Source: Eledone cirrhosa (taxonomy: Eukaryota). Taken from it: DNA of 64,000 nucleotides. Positions 1 to 53,651 of this stretch are shown in pieces (position 1 is the stretch's first letter; the number at the start of each line of letters is the position of its first letter). The notes under the pieces were generated by a model. The model saw nothing but the letters and a program-made list of their open reading frames with translations, had not been told where the DNA came from and searched no databases. The stretch lies in contig OZ024746.1 of NCBI GenBank assembly GCA_964016885.1, positions 40,796,001 through 40,860,000 on the forward strand, read 5' to 3'. The position numbers and the translations under genes were made by a program.

Positions 1-55
1 CACATACATATGCCGTCTTCAGAAATAATATTTCTGAAGACGGCATATGTATGTG
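1..55. repeat. Perfect fold-back palindrome (27-bp arms, 1-nt spacer), cut by the window start; inverted end of a Penelope pseudo-LTR
   Basis: Bases 1-27 CACATACATATGCCGTCTTCAGAAATA are the exact reverse complement of 29-55. The right arm continues into sequence homologous to 4850-5040. Confidence 0.9.
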
Positions 56-175
56 TTGGTATGTATATTGAATTTGATAGTTTGTATAATTTTGTATAAT
101 TTTGTACATAGATCTGTTGAATATGCATGCCAATTCTAACACATATATGTCCTAGAAACGATCGTTAAATAATGA
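29..175 (+). ncRNA. Minimal type-I hammerhead ribozyme motif with long helix II (Penelope pLTR family A)
   Basis: CTGAAGA 34-40; imperfect long helix II; GAAAC 155-159; palindromic loop GATC; GTT triplet 164-166; helix I TATTT/AAATA. Confidence 0.65.
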
Positions 176-235
176 ACTTTTTTTGTTTAATATAAGGAAC
201 TGTTTCATTGTTTTATTCATTATTTTTTTAATACT

Positions 236-1214
236 TTATATATATATATATAAATATATATATATATATATATATATATATATATATATATATATATATA
301 TATATATATATATATATATATATATATATAAATATATATATAAATATATATATATATATATATAAATATATATATAAATATATATATATAAATATATATA
401 TAAATATATATATAAATATATATATATAAATATATATATAAATATATATATATAAATATATATATAAATATATATATATAAATATATATATATAAATATA
501 TATATAAATATATATATAAATATATATATAAATATATATATAAATATATATATAAATATATATATAAATATATATATATATATAAATATATATATATAAA
601 TATATATATATATATAAATATATATATATAAATATATATATAAAAATATATATATATATAAATATATATATATAAATATATATATATATAAATATATATA
701 TATAAATATATATATAAATATATATATATAAATATATATATAAATATATATATATAAATATATATATAAATATATATATATAAATATATATATAAATATA
801 TATATAAATATATATATATAAATATATATATAAATATATATATATAAATATATATATAAATATATATATAAATATATATATATAAATATATATATAAATA
901 TATATATAAATATATATATATAAATATATATATAAATATATATATAAATATATATATATAAATATATATATAAATATATATATAAATATATATATATAAA
1001 TATATATATAAATATATATATAAATATATATATATAAATATATAAATATAAATATATATATAAATATATATATATAAATATATATATAAATATATATATA
1101 AATATATATATATAAATATATATATAAATATATATATAAATATATATATATAAATATATAAATATAAATATATATATAAATATATATATATAAATATATA
1201 TATAAATATATATG
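236..1214. repeat. (TA)n microsatellite array with periodic TAAA interruptions
   Basis: Seen directly. The ORFs called here are poly-IY translation artefacts. Confidence 0.98.
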
Positions 1215-1339
1215 TAGGAGGTGAGTTTTATTGTATTACAATAAAGCAATGCAGATATCGGATAAGAAGCACTCTACAGTTTGTAGGACTGGAGTATACA
1301 TAATATATAAGATCAAAAGATGGTTAAAGGAGTTCCATG

Positions 1340-1410
1340 TATTTTATTATGCGCATTTCAAAAACAAACATCATCATGCAATAATATTTGTGTTTTCATC
1401 AGATAAAACA
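1340..1410 (-). ncRNA. Minimal type-I hammerhead ribozyme (family B, mirror copy with intact helix I)
   Basis: Reverse complement of the 1534-1604 motif. Helix I TGTTTTAT/ATAAAATA is fully paired, with one G-U. Confidence 0.82.
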
Positions 1411-1533
1411 GGAGAACATGATATGAAGGCTAAAAAACACTTGTGGATAGTGCAGTTTTAAATCAACATATCATATGTTGATTTAAAACTGCACTATCCA
1501 CAAGTGTTTTTTAGCCTTCATATCATGTTCTCC

Positions 1534-1604
1534 TGTTTTCTCTGATGAAAACACAAATATTATTGCATGATGATGTTTGTTTTTGAAATGCGCATAATAA
1601 AATA
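1534..1604 (+). ncRNA. Minimal type-I hammerhead ribozyme (family B)
   Basis: TGTTTTCT-CTGATGA(1542-1548)-16-bp helix II with GCAT loop-GAAA(1585-1588)-T-GCGC-A-TA-ATAAAATA. AUA triplet and palindromic helix III loop. Confidence 0.8.
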
Positions 1605-49649: not shown

Positions 49650-49870
49650 TGAATGCCTCGTAGAAACTGCTGTTGTTTAGTCTTGACCGAGCAAAACCTG
49701 TTATCAAGGATATCCCAGTCGTGACGATCCTGCATTTCATTTACAGGTGCACTGTATCTAAGAGAACATTATCAAATGTGTCTATCTTTGCCCTTTTTTT
49801 AAAAGACCGTAGAGTATATAAATATGAAAGAGATTTGGCTAATATTTCTAAGTCGAGGCTTCCTCATTGG
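49650..49870 (+). repeat. Unclassified interspersed repeat (also at about 50640-50830, 53935-54040 and 55090-55240)
   Basis: Shared AAACCT.T.ATCAA...TTCCAGTC and GATTTGGCT.CTATTT...AG.GG blocks. Confidence 0.6.
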
Positions 49871-51259
49871 TTCATATGATAAGAATCTGATTAGAAAAGC
49901 GATAAAACCTTTGTTGAGTTGTTTCCTTTTTGATTTTGTTTATATTCTTCAGAAGAGTTCAGGCGTTACATTTGTGGTCATACTGAAGCTCCGCAAACAG
50001 GTAAGAGACTGAAGATTAAGGTAATTGCGAAAAAAGGAGGAAGAGAAGGAGTGGGCGTAAGATGAAGTTCAAGAAGTAGAGGATGGGTTAAAGTAATTGT
50101 GGTTAAGTATGGAGGATGATTTGTCATAGTTATTTTAAAAATCAGGTAATCTTGGAGATAAGATAGACTACTTTAAGTAAATAACGAGAGCGTTGAAATG
50201 TCGAGGGAATAACAGGGAGTTGGATAATAACGTGTAAATATAACTAGGTTCTTAGCATAACATATGATATAACCGGAAAGTAAATACTGAAGATTGTTGA
50301 AGAGTGTGCTGAGAGGTATCCTTAAATAAGCAGCAGTAATGGATAAACTTGAGAGAGACGGGAGATGTTTGTGAATCAAAGAGACTGAGAATAGCATTAG
50401 TAACGAGATATCGATAATTCTAAGATGTTCCTAGTTCATTGCCAAGGATCTCTCGTTTTGTAACATGATGAAAGAAACTCTTTTATGAAATTAATGTCAG
50501 CGATTAAATTTCCAAATCTAAAAATATAATCCAGTTCAAAGAAATCTACTAATTCTCTACCACCACCCAAAACATTACACATACAATATCGACAAGTTTC
50601 TTGAAAATGTAAACAAAATAGTGAAAGTAATATGCTGCTGTTTTTTTTAGACCCAGATCAGCCCTGATCCAGCAAACCTACAAAGGGGTTCCAGTCTCTT
50701 TTATAAACCCAATACATCTAGAACTACATTACTCATTGTGTCCTTTTTTTTAAAAAAAAACAACGTTAGAGGAGGGTTTTAGAAAGATTTGGCTACTATT
50801 TTGAGCAGGTCAAGAGATTTCAACGAGGGGACCTAAACTTGAACTTTCAACATGCTAAAAGTTTGTTTCGTCAAATCATTATCTAGCATCTAAAATAAGG
50901 GGGAGCGGCGCTCATTGCACAGTCCTAGATAGACAAAACAATGAAATCATCATGGTAGGGAATGTTTTTCGATTAGGACTAACTTAGGGAACAACGTAGG
51001 GCCTCCCTCGTCAACTCACGAACTTGTGATTTGATGAGAGCTCAGCCGTGTTTGCGTTTGTAGAAGAAATTCAGAATGCCTGTTTCTATTCCCACTCCTA
51101 AATTAATCACACTAAAACTTTGGTACCGTGTATATTATCTAGAATCCTCCTCATCAACTACTCTGAGCATGACCTCAATGTCCCTGCTTTTATTTACCCT
51201 ACCGTGAACTTGTTAATTTAAACTCTCCCTCTCTCTCCACACACACATATATATATAAA

Positions 51260-51841
51260 CTCATAACTCCTGATGAAGTCGTAAGGGCGCCGTAGTGACA
51301 TACGGCGGGTCTTGGGCATTTAAAACCTAGTGGAGCTTATCCTCTCTACCAGTGAAGGAGAGAGAGAATGATATAGCGGGAGTGAAAGGGTGATATAGAG
51401 AAAGAAGCGACCGGTACTTTTTTTTATCGACCTCGAAAGAATGAAAAGGGTCAGCCGAAAAGTTCATAGGCTAACCATGAAGGAGTGATGCTAGTGCTGT
51501 GAAATCTCGCATACATTAATTTCAATTCTTATTAATAATTGCATTGTTTCTTTCCAGAGACTGTTTAAAAATAAACCTCATTTGGTCATTTCATACGGCG
51601 TGTCTAGGGCACTATTAAACCTAGCAGAGCCCAACCCTCTTCAGTTTTGAACACAGCCGGGTTTTTTTCTATAGAGGAAGAATCGACTACAGTACTGGAC
51701 TGGTACATTTTTTATCGACCTCGAAAAGATGAAAGGTAAAGTTGACCACGGCGGGATTTGAACACAGAGCGTGCAATAAAGTGGGACGAATACCGTAAAG
51801 CATTCTATCCGATATCTTAACGACCCTGCCAATTCGCCGCC
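51260..51841 (-). mobile_element. Long-tail SINE family 1 copies separated by a mariner-like terminal fragment (51448-51590)
   Basis: GGGTCAGCCGAAAAGTTCATAGGCT resembles a mariner TIR; SINE cores lie on both sides. Confidence 0.65.
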
Positions 51842-53020
51842 TATAGAAGAACGGTTAGATAATAACAAATACATTTTTTATATGTTAACCGAGAAATCAT
51901 GTCTATCGTTTAAATCGATGAAGTTAGAAATCAACTGTTCAATACTAAAATACCAATGACAAATCAGAAAGAGAGGTGTGTAGAGAAATTGATAAAACTT
52001 ACCTTAGTGTCGTTTTATACAATGTACCAGATTGGTTAGATTTACAATACTCTTTCCTTCCTTTTTTCTCGTTAAAGACTTTTCAAATACAATGTTGCAA
52101 GTAATTCTATAATTAGCATTATAACTAAAAGTACTATATCAGTCTTATACTATCTATTAGAAAGTTAGGGGTGGATGTTCACGGGTAGTTGATTTATGAG
52201 TTGTGGCTCATTGACTAGCATAGTTCAAGCAGGAAACATAAAAGTTGTGAAGACTGCTGTGTAGGTAGGAAACCAATTTATATCTATAGTAGCCTTCTTA
52301 TTGTAAACTTAAAAGCAAAGCAAATATAGCAAGACAAACATTCTAGGAAGTTTTGAAACTTTAACATATATTCTCTGGCGCCTACCCACAGTTTTAGCAA
52401 GTGTATGTAAGTCAGTGATACCAACTGTAACATAGGAAGTACTCAACGGGTATCTTAAGGGTGGAAACTGATTAGTTCTTCCAGGTGTCCTAGGTACGGG
52501 GGTAAATATGTCAGTATGAACACACACACACACACATATATAATATATATATATATATATTTATATGAGATAACTTTAGATGAGAACGTGGTAAGGAAGA
52601 TTTGTAGCAAAAGTATGCTTCTTTCTTTTCTTCATTTCTTTTTAATTCATTTTTATTCCGACTTGGCTAGATTAAAACATGTAATCAAATAATTTTCAAA
52701 TGAATATGAAGAGTGGGAAAGAAAAAAAAAACGAGCGGTCGAGAAAAAGTGGAATACTGAAGAGGTATTGATAAAAAAAGAGTAAAGCGACGAAAAGCTA
52801 TGTGGGCGAGTAATAAAATAATCTTTGAAAATAAAAGTCTGATATGAAATGTGTGGGGTTGGGTATGTTGGAGGTAGGAGAGAGATTATACAACATTTCA
52901 ACAAGAGCCGAACAGCTGTGGTCGCTGCGTATCGAGTTACTTCATGCCAATGATTATATATATATATATATATATATATATATATATATTAACAAAAATA
53001 GACATTCGTGTGATCAAGTA

Positions 53021-53087
53021 TATTTTATTATACATATTTCAGAGGTACTGAGCTATCTTCAACAGTACGTCTTCATCAGATAAAATA
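53021..53087 (-). ncRNA. Mirror-copy hammerhead ribozyme
   Basis: Reverse complement of 53200-53266; helix II begins AGAC/..TCT. Confidence 0.82.
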
Positions 53088-53199
53088 AGATGATGCATGG
53101 CATACCCTGACATAGTAGATGGTTAAGATTCAGTAGATGGTTAAGATCTACCATGACTGAATCTTAACCATCTATGTCAAGGTATGTCATGCATCATCT

Positions 53200-53266
53200 T
53201 ATTTTATCTGATGAGGACGTACTGTTGAAGATAGCTCAGTACCTCTGAAATATGTATAATAAAATA
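53200..53266 (+). ncRNA. Minimal type-I hammerhead ribozyme (related to family B)
   Basis: TATTTTAT-CTGATGA(53208-53214)-GGACGTACTG...CAGTACCTCT-GAAA(53247-53250)-T-ATGT-A-TA-ATAAAATA, with a perfect 8-bp helix I. Confidence 0.82.
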
Positions 53267-53651
53267 TACTTGATCACACGAATGTCTATTTTTGTTAATA
53301 TTTTGAATTAATATTAATAACTCCGGAAAACCATTACTGTTGAGTGCTTCCAATCTATTGTAAAACTCATTCTTTGATTTATTCATTGAACCTTGTTTAA
53401 CCTTTAAATATATATATATATAAACTGTTAAACTAGAAATGTAGTCTATAGGATAGGATGTACTGAGAGATGATGCAGAAACAAGACAACATACATAGGA
53501 GTGACAGTCCGTAGTATAGGAGAGAGATTAAAGGAACACTAGCGAGAACTTAAGAAGAAAAGCTCATCAGTGATATGCCAAATGAGGGCTCAATAGATAA
53601 CATAGAAATAAAGATCCTATCCATACACAGAACTGACGCAATATATATATA

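What the first reader, a model, noticed from the sequence alone, without database searches (positions are those of the whole stretch)
1..53301. Recurring module: ORF-less, hammerhead-bearing fold-back palindromes embedded in (TA)n arrays
Seen: at least four separate loci (1-240, 1300-1644, 5073-5818, 52986-53301) share one architecture. Each is a short inverted duplication carrying a minimal type-I hammerhead (CTGANGA...GAAA-N-short loop, palindromic or nearly so-NTH) and lies in or next to TA microsatellite. The sequences are four distinct types. Established: Penelope-like elements carry minimal hammerheads in their pLTRs and often have inverted 5' ends. Inference: the window is a hotspot of retrozyme-like non-autonomous units mobilised by Penelope proteins that target (TA)n. 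Where both arms keep a whole ribozyme, transcription from either strand meets a self-cleaving motif, but the long hairpin would sequester it. That could be a structural on/off switch and a source of dsRNA inside a host transcript.
Basis: partly seen in the sequence, partly recalled or inferred. Interest (0 to 1): 0.75.

Follow-up and report, generated by a model that had tools for sequence, protein, structure and literature searches.

The report
Penelope-like ends plus one retrozyme
These mirror-image ribozyme repeats are mostly the short, truncated ends of very abundant Penelope-like jumping genes known to insert into TA repeats, and one is a protein-less 529-base ribozyme repeat with the same two-ended insertion footprint, which suggests that the same enzyme likely copies one RNA onto both sides of a DNA break.

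Summary
Partly confirmed. Loci 1214-1634 and 52990-53407 are fold-backs with a hammerhead in each arm. Locus 1-236 has one whole hammerhead; in 5075-5817 the inverted part carries none. Three of the four types are not ORF-less units: they are 5'-truncated ends (pLTRs) of Hydra-clade Penelope-like elements, whose (TA)n targeting, hammerheads, inverted copies and tails are published. One 19-nt hammerhead half has 53,991 genomic hits (control 8), so the window is no clear hotspot (3 insertions against about 1 expected, P=0.07). Only 5075-5817 is a real ORF-less unit: a 529-nt tandem monomer, retrozyme-like. In both kinds of element the two arms end at two different fixed sites, into (TA)n (25 of 27 and 28 of 30 two-armed insertions). 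That points to both ends of one break priming reverse transcription at the two start sites of one RNA (inferred). The switch idea is unsupported: either strand transcribes the antisense arm first, and the hairpin outcompetes the ribozyme by about 95 kcal/mol. The scan reported the two-site footprint before, for other retrozyme families in this genome; here it is also shown for ORF-linked families. No cleavage or RNA evidence was obtained.

The parts
1..236 (+). Family A pLTR, two-armed insertion. Right arm 29-236 has a hammerhead (core 34, 114-nt helix II, GUU site after 166). The inverted, internally deleted left arm with the tail continues about 370 nt upstream of the window.
   Evidence: 81% identical to 4852-5033
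237..1213 (.). (TA)n-derived array, target of the insertions
1214..1634 (.). Family B fold-back: left arm (minus) ends at site 2 (+134, tail 1214-1300), right arm (plus) ends at site 1 (about +38); junction near 1470 at the family's 5' junction hotspot
1340..1410 (-). Minimal type-I hammerhead, intact (8-bp helix I, palindromic helix III, AUA site after 1348)
1534..1604 (+). Second B hammerhead, one helix I mismatch next to the core
1635..2180 (.). (TA)n-derived array
2181..5040 (+). 5'-truncated family A Hydra-clade PLE: inverted arm with tail (2181-2443), broken RT-thumb/linker/GIY-YIG ORF (2395-3682), 3' UTR, and a pLTR ending at site 1 into (TA)n
4849..4988 (+). Family A hammerhead (105-nt helix II); cleavage triplet mutated (U16.1 to C) in this copy
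   Evidence: sequence against family copies
5075..5817 (+). Family C ORF-less retrozyme-like insertion: inverted tail (5075-5180, ends at site 2), partial unit (5181-5403), unit (5404-5817) ending at site 1 into (TA)n; monomer 529 nt
5684..5765 (+). Family C atypical hammerhead (C.A at base of a 50-nt helix II, palindromic helix III, GUU site after 5760, 4-6 bp helix I)
   Evidence: compensatory changes in divergent relatives
5818..9139 (.). (TA)n-derived array
48069..48252 (-).
52990..53407 (.). Family D fold-back: left arm (minus) ends at site 1, right arm (plus) runs through the tail (53302-53407) to site 2; hammerheads at 53021-53087 (minus) and 53200-53266 (plus)

Best explanation
Loci A, B and D (and likely E) are 5'-truncated ends of several Hydra-clade Penelope-like retrotransposon families and locus C is an ORF-less 529-nt tandem ribozyme unit with the same insertion footprint; the fold-backs likely arise when the element's protein cuts both strands in (TA)n and primes reverse transcription from both DNA ends at the RNA's two start sites, after which the two cDNAs would be joined head to head. 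Shown: family membership, the ORF link for A, B and D, two fixed 3' ends per family, the one-end-each rule, and (TA)n flanks. Inferred: double priming; that both cDNAs usually come from one source RNA; that C borrows a Hydra-type protein; that the hammerheads cleave (as dimers or with protein help) in single-arm RNAs. The palindrome is a by-product of integration, not a regulatory switch.
For: ORF link: full-length B ORFs of 738-821 codons stop-to-stop (L168, L183, L187, L215); ORF parts in 5 of 5 long A loci, 4 of 4 long B loci and 3 of 4 long D loci. Hydra motifs DKT, CxCx5C and CxxC-E-N-CxH in 2 of 2 B proteins checked, as defined in PMC8557442 section 11. The 3' ends are bimodal: B about +38-46 or +133-134, C +61 or +173, A about +60 or +190-200. 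Two-armed insertions have one end at each site in 25 of 27 unbiased B/D/E cases and 28 of 30 C cases; P<1e-6 each against 50:50. B arms share subfamily alleles in 26 of 27 pairs, some also rare or private ones. A PLE protein cleaves and extends both strands, starts at two adjacent RNA sites that bound the tail, and is predicted to be a dimer (PMC11167929). In C, copies that reach the monomer start are preceded by the end of the previous unit wherever the flank could be mapped (60 loci; in L249 only its last bases remain), arrays reach 8 or more units, and the longest ATG-started frame is 53 aa. One C insertion continues without TA into a Hydra-type ORF whose inverted 3' part forms the other arm (L065/L273). 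Hammerhead pairs: shared variants keep pairing 10 of 16 times, private ones 13 of 72 (P=0.0007).
Against: No cleavage, RNA or protein data. [quoted passage not shown] One B pair (L003) has arms of two subfamilies and one (L187) ends at site 2 twice. Shared alleles between arms could also come from a single dominant master copy or from gene conversion. Within B and D the pair-keeping changes are one-sided (wobble) apart from one single-copy case, so classical covariation is weak. The C hammerhead lies 6-10 kcal/mol above the minimum fold. The C-PLE chimera is 1 of the 60 C loci mapped and could be later recombination. No full-length D element was found. Membership of Hydra rests on motifs, not on a tree.
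Confidence: 0.8

Rival explanations
1. One reading: the palindromes are an ORF-less module that moves as a unit and acts as an RNA on/off switch or dsRNA source.
For: B junctions pile up at about -124 (19 of 56 arms), so many B fold-backs look alike. Fold-backs are frequent (16 pairs in 100 unbiased hits). The hairpin does sequester the ribozyme in silico. C is ORF-less.
Against: Junction sequences and arm lengths differ from locus to locus, even between two near-identical B loci. The same subfamily alleles occur in ORF-bearing copies. The geometry is always antisense first, so there is no 'on' state for read-through RNA. There is no A>G excess on the sense strand of C units or B arms, which a dsRNA template might leave.
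Confidence: 0.07
2. Short pLTR-only RNAs with a fixed 5' end near -124, made from an internal promoter (also by fold-back copies), are themselves templates, so the B/D/E ends propagate SINE-like without the ORF.
For: A 5' pile-up at -125 to -119 in B, and similar positions in D and E, at the start of a predicted hairpin upstream of the hammerhead. C shows no such single pile-up.
Against: The pile-up lies at a short self-complementary hexamer and a hairpin base, which could simply favour joining or RT release. No subfamily restricted to short copies was seen. No transcription start data.
Confidence: 0.3
3. The inverted arm is a DNA-level snap-back copy of a single cDNA.
For: Arms usually share alleles (26 of 27 pairs).
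Against: The shorter arm stops at site 1, the same end that solo copies use, and the other arm carries the tail. L003 has arms from two subfamilies.
Confidence: 0.12
4. The palindromes are fold-back chimeras of sequencing or assembly.
For: Palindromes next to microsatellites are error-prone.
Against: Ends fall at family-specific sites, arms are asymmetric and diverged, and the pattern recurs in five families on many contigs.
Confidence: 0.02

Closest known systems
Hydra-clade Penelope-like elements (Craig et al. 2021, PMC8557442; abstract, passages, section 11 and supplement rows seen; includes Hydra-1_Obim from Octopus bimaculoides, (TA)n)
   Same: C-terminal GIY-YIG, DKT, CxCx5C linker, CxxC/CxH, hammerhead in the pLTR, (TA)n targeting, 5' truncation, inverted 5' copy, tail at one end
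   Different: Longer (about 3.7-3.9 kb between pLTRs, 1.2-1.9 kb 3' UTR); tails of about 90-140 nt rather than 30-40; tens of thousands of copies; RW(I/T) in place of RWK in B. The supplement lists Hydra-1_Obim with no pLTR.
Poseidon PAc of Anolis (Frangieh et al. 2024, PMC11167929; parts 1-2 of 4 read, covering the main text)
   Same: Two RT start sites bounding the tail, cleavage and extension of both strands, AT-rich targets, protein-assisted hammerhead
   Different: Different clade; strict (TA)n here; that paper found no strand difference in start site and does not describe a one-site-per-arm rule
Metazoan non-LTR retrozymes (Cervera and de la Pena 2020, PMC7229834, passages; Li, Clavereau and Pollet 2026, 10.64898/2026.07.22.740005, part 1 of 5 and passages)
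   Same: Family C: ORF-less, low GC, tandem monomers each with a type-I hammerhead, dispersed
   Different: 529 nt against 150-450 nt; atypical hammerhead; PLE-type tail, two-armed inverted insertions and (TA)n targets, which the passages seen do not describe; circular RNA not tested here
Minimal PLE hammerheads (Cervera and de la Pena 2014, PMC4209133, passages)
   Same: Short palindromic helix III, long helix II with an internal bulge, expected to work as dimers with low activity
   Different: 8-bp helix I in A, B, D, E; no G10.1-C11.1 pair; helix II of 50-114 nt in A and C
Non-autonomous Chlamys elements such as MRC1 (PMC8557442, passage)
   Same: ORF-less, head-to-tail insertions attributed to PLE proteins
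   Different: Those resemble their autonomous partner at the 3' end; no clear partner pLTR was found for C

Membership tests
Hydra-clade PLE (families A, B, D) | Single ORF with RT and C-terminal GIY-YIG endonuclease | tested here: met
   B full-length ORFs with YRDD and a C-terminal Y.G.T motif; A in pieces; for D only linker and EN seen. Pfam found no RT or GIY-YIG model.
Hydra-clade PLE (families A, B, D) | DKG modified to DKT | tested here: met
   SDKT in B and A (L132); not seen for D
Hydra-clade PLE (families A, B, D) | CxCx5C linker; CxxC and CxH around the conserved E and N | tested here: met
   B; A, D
Hydra-clade PLE (families A, B, D) | CCHH motif absent from the EN domain | tested here: inconclusive
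   not evident by eye in the translations; no alignment to CCHH-bearing ENs was made
Hydra-clade PLE (families A, B, D) | N-terminal RWK motif | tested here: inconclusive
   B has RLRWI or RLRWT: RW kept, K not
Hydra-clade PLE (families A, B, D) | Hammerhead in the pLTR; insertion into (TA)n | tested here: met
   88 of 95 B and 34 of 41 D copies have an intact core and site; TA at the 3' end in 50 of 56 B and 11 of 13 D arms
Hydra-clade PLE (families A, B, D) | Generally shorter than 3 kb | tested here: not met
   B pLTR-to-pLTR 3.7-3.9 kb in L183 and L215; the paper gives this as a tendency
Hydra-clade PLE (families A, B, D) | RT phylogeny places it within Hydra | not tested
   no tree with reference PLE proteins was built
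Non-LTR retrozyme (family C) | ORF-less tandem monomers of a few hundred nt, dispersed | tested here: met
   529 nt, 693 exact core hits, arrays up to 8 or more units
Non-LTR retrozyme (family C) | Type-I hammerhead in each unit | tested here: met
   core invariant in most units, compensatory changes in helices I and II of divergent relatives; atypical, activity untested
Non-LTR retrozyme (family C) | Self-cleavage and circular monomeric RNA | not testable with these tools
   indirect and mixed: 8 of 57 5' ends lie at -2..+20 of the cut site (P=0.005, window chosen after the fact); one array has identical units, most have units as diverged as other loci

The most novel reading that the evidence does not exclude
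Hydra-type Penelope proteins integrate by obligate double priming: each end of a cut in (TA)n uses a different one of the RNA's two start sites on the same template. The same machinery moves an ORF-less 529-nt retrozyme in trans, one template-switch chimera naming a young high-copy Hydra family as its helper. Tens of thousands of ribozyme palindromes in this genome would be the footprints.
Probability: 0.5. Interest if true: 0.62.

Novelty: new member of a known kind. Interest (0 to 1): 0.4.

Why it matters
How Penelope-like elements form their inverted copies and tails is named as an open question in PMC8557442, and how retrozymes move is named as one in the 2026 preprint. The one-end-each rule, seen both in ORF-linked families and in an ORF-less unit, gives a sharp prediction for an in vitro assay with intact ORFs present in this genome. 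The chimera suggests a helper-parasite pair to test. Otherwise the loci are ordinary, very abundant transposon ends.

Tried and rejected
Rfam: no hammerhead among the listed matches. Pfam: no domain for the PLE proteins. The homologue search gave 18 unnamed proteins at 29-38% identity and no usable names. Sequencing runs: no RNA holder listed. Contigs of three runs of one sample did not span the D junction, which proves nothing either way. A-to-I editing scars: none in C (A>G 42 against T>C 60, equal rates) or on the sense strand of B. Rolling-circle test on C: only L276 has identical units; 19 of 80 tandem comparisons were closer within a locus than to any other locus, so the result is inconclusive. 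A helix I variant recurring in one arm of many B pairs is likely an artefact of how the DNA search seeds on rare words; it is absent from the unbiased pairs. The alternative parse of C using the nearer GAAA motifs was rejected: helix I does not form, and divergent relatives keep the distal GAAA. No autonomous pLTR resembling C was found among the fetched loci. A search of our findings with the C sequence gave nothing. Paper searches found no paper stating the one-site-per-arm rule; the library lacks most subscription papers, and the preprint's supplements were not seen. An Octopus vulgaris repeat paper (PMC13282606, passages) has no mention of ribozymes.
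Full report
Setting. The window lies in a 3.0-Gb genome, probably a cephalopod; that is an inference from genome size and from likeness by eye to Hydra-1_Obim, and was not established. Positions written +n or -n count from the predicted hammerhead cleavage site.

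Observation. Self-comparison finds true palindromes at 1311-1633 and 52999-53288, a 55-nt one at 1-55, and an interrupted one at 5080-5398. A structure-aware scan finds intact minimal type-I hammerheads on the minus arm of B, on both arms of D and at an unreported locus E (48165, minus); the plus arm of B has a helix I mismatch. A relaxed scan adds long-helix-II variants in A and C. Rfam lists no hammerhead. In A the left arm lies mostly upstream of the window and is internally deleted. In C the inverted part is only the tail. So two of the four loci fit the description fully.

Abundance. The 19-nt 3' half shared by the B, D and E hammerheads has 53,991 exact hits against 8 for the control; the C core has 693 against 0. 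The window has five such arms in three insertions. As arms this is P=0.007, but arms come in pairs; as insertions it is 3 against 0.97 expected, P=0.07. The first 9 kb is a nest of insertions, and similar multi-family nests occur in other sampled loci.

A, B and D are ends of coding elements. Window 2181-5040 is itself a truncated element with a broken ORF whose pLTR is 81% identical to locus A. Longer copies elsewhere show ORF parts upstream of the pLTR in 5 of 5 A, 4 of 4 B and 3 of 4 D loci fetched for that purpose. Among the first 100 pattern hits, taken without selection, four loci carry B ORFs of 738-821 codons. Two were checked and have DKT, CxCx5C, YRDD and CxxC-E-N-CxH, the Hydra-clade features of PMC8557442 section 11, which also reports (TA)n insertion and hammerheads. 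The supplement lists an Octopus member. An E-type relative just upstream of the window also ends an ORF-bearing element, and L217 has ORF pieces between two E-type pLTRs; the window's own E subfamily was not linked to an ORF. Inverted truncated copies and a tail at one end are described as typical in the same paper.

Two fixed ends and the one-end-each rule. In the unbiased sample the 3' ends are bimodal (counts use the 88 of 100 arms at 80% identity or more to the reference). Of 27 two-armed B/D/E insertions, 25 have one arm at site 1 and the other at site 2, one has 2/2 and one is unclear. For C, 28 of 30 two-armed insertions follow the rule and 2 are unclear, among 51 loci left after dropping 9 of 60 as overlapping or part of long arrays; half of the C loci came from a best-hit search. 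All 16 close pairs are head to head, none convergent. B arms share subfamily alleles in 26 of 27 pairs, while L003 joins two subfamilies. PMC11167929 shows that a PLE protein cuts and extends both strands and starts at two sites bounding the tail. I infer that each DNA end primes at a different site, usually on the same source RNA, and that the cDNAs join where they stop. B junctions cluster at about -124 (19 of 56 arms), at a short self-complementary hexamer and the start of a predicted hairpin. Whether that marks a transcript start or just a favoured joint is open.

Family C. The monomer is 529 nt and its longest ATG-started frame is 53 aa. Across the 60 loci, copies that reach the monomer start are preceded by the end of the previous unit wherever the flank could be mapped, and none by a longer UTR. 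Arrays reach 8 or more units. Divergent relatives show double-sided compensation in helix II and alternative perfect helices I, with the distal GAAA, helix III and GUU site kept. 8 of 57 5' ends fall at -2..+20 (P=0.005, post hoc), whereas 35 of 57 lie further upstream, having crossed the cut site: templates were partly cut, partly uncut or re-ligated. Unit identity within arrays does not settle circle against concatemer. One insertion runs from C site 1 into the ORF of a young, high-copy Hydra-type family (F) with no TA between, and its other arm is an inverted F 3' fragment. This suggests a template switch; it is one case.

Ribozymes and the switch. In B and D, shared variants keep base pairs more often than private ones (10 of 16 against 13 of 72, P=0.0007), almost all through one-sided changes. 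Single arms of B, D and E reach the hammerhead fold within 1.3-3.3 kcal/mol of the minimum, A and C within 6-13, and whole fold-backs only 94-99 above it. Because the antisense arm is always transcribed first, read-through RNA has no 'on' state. Minimal PLE hammerheads are reported to cleave poorly and as dimers (PMC4209133), and the PAc ribozyme needs protein and is dispensable for insertion in vitro. dsRNA from read-through is possible but was not shown, and no sense-strand editing excess was found.

Prior work in this scan. Eight listed notes on other pieces of this genome describe 311-, 422- and 467-nt retrozyme families, most of them as two-armed insertions with Penelope-type ends. They are unchecked AI notes and not independent support. 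My reading was recorded before that look-up. The C sequence matched none.

Verdict. Real elements of known kinds: Hydra-clade PLE ends plus a new retrozyme family. The added value is the two-site rule extended to ORF-linked families and a candidate helper. The module, hotspot and switch readings are not supported.

Noticed in passing
L065 / L273 (G000:C4, about 62.025-62.028 Mb): Chimeric insertion: a C unit fused without TA to the ORF of Hydra-type family F, with an inverted F 3' fragment at the other end
   Followed up: partly
L263-L272: Family F (young, 98-99% identical copies) has an atypical hammerhead-like motif with a U4-to-A core change, a U.U at the base of helix II and a CUU site (parsed by eye); its two-armed copies also appear to end at two different sites
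   Followed up: partly
window 60640-60958, 31627-31756, 24843-24890: Another fold-back family (85% arms), with a CUGANGA at 24890 that did not pass the hammerhead scan
   Followed up: no
L121:5161-8070 (about 1-4 kb upstream of the window): ORF-bearing Hydra-type PLE ending in an E-like hammerhead pLTR with tail; part of the same (TA)n nest
   Followed up: partly
window 14552-15792 (minus) and 18636-21137 (plus): Two related non-LTR retrotransposon remnants (RVT_1 and zf-RVT hits), 72% identical
   Followed up: no
window 13735-14126, 15789-16766, 30138-30500, 36503-36685, 47203-47823 and others: Many copies of a repeat family of about 190 nt, probably tRNA-derived SINEs (weak tRNA match at 41339-41402)
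   Followed up: no
family B arms: Rare variants show T>C over A>G and G>A over C>T on the sense strand (P about 0.005 each), as deamination of single-stranded cDNA would give; not seen in C; small numbers
   Followed up: no
window 4300-4850: The A-family 3' UTR holds degenerate direct repeats upstream of the pLTR (seen by eye)
   Followed up: no
G000:C1 about 94.66-94.68 Mb (L274, L275) and C1 289.726 Mb (L276): Long C arrays: one with 8 or more units 93-97% identical, one with identical units
   Followed up: partly
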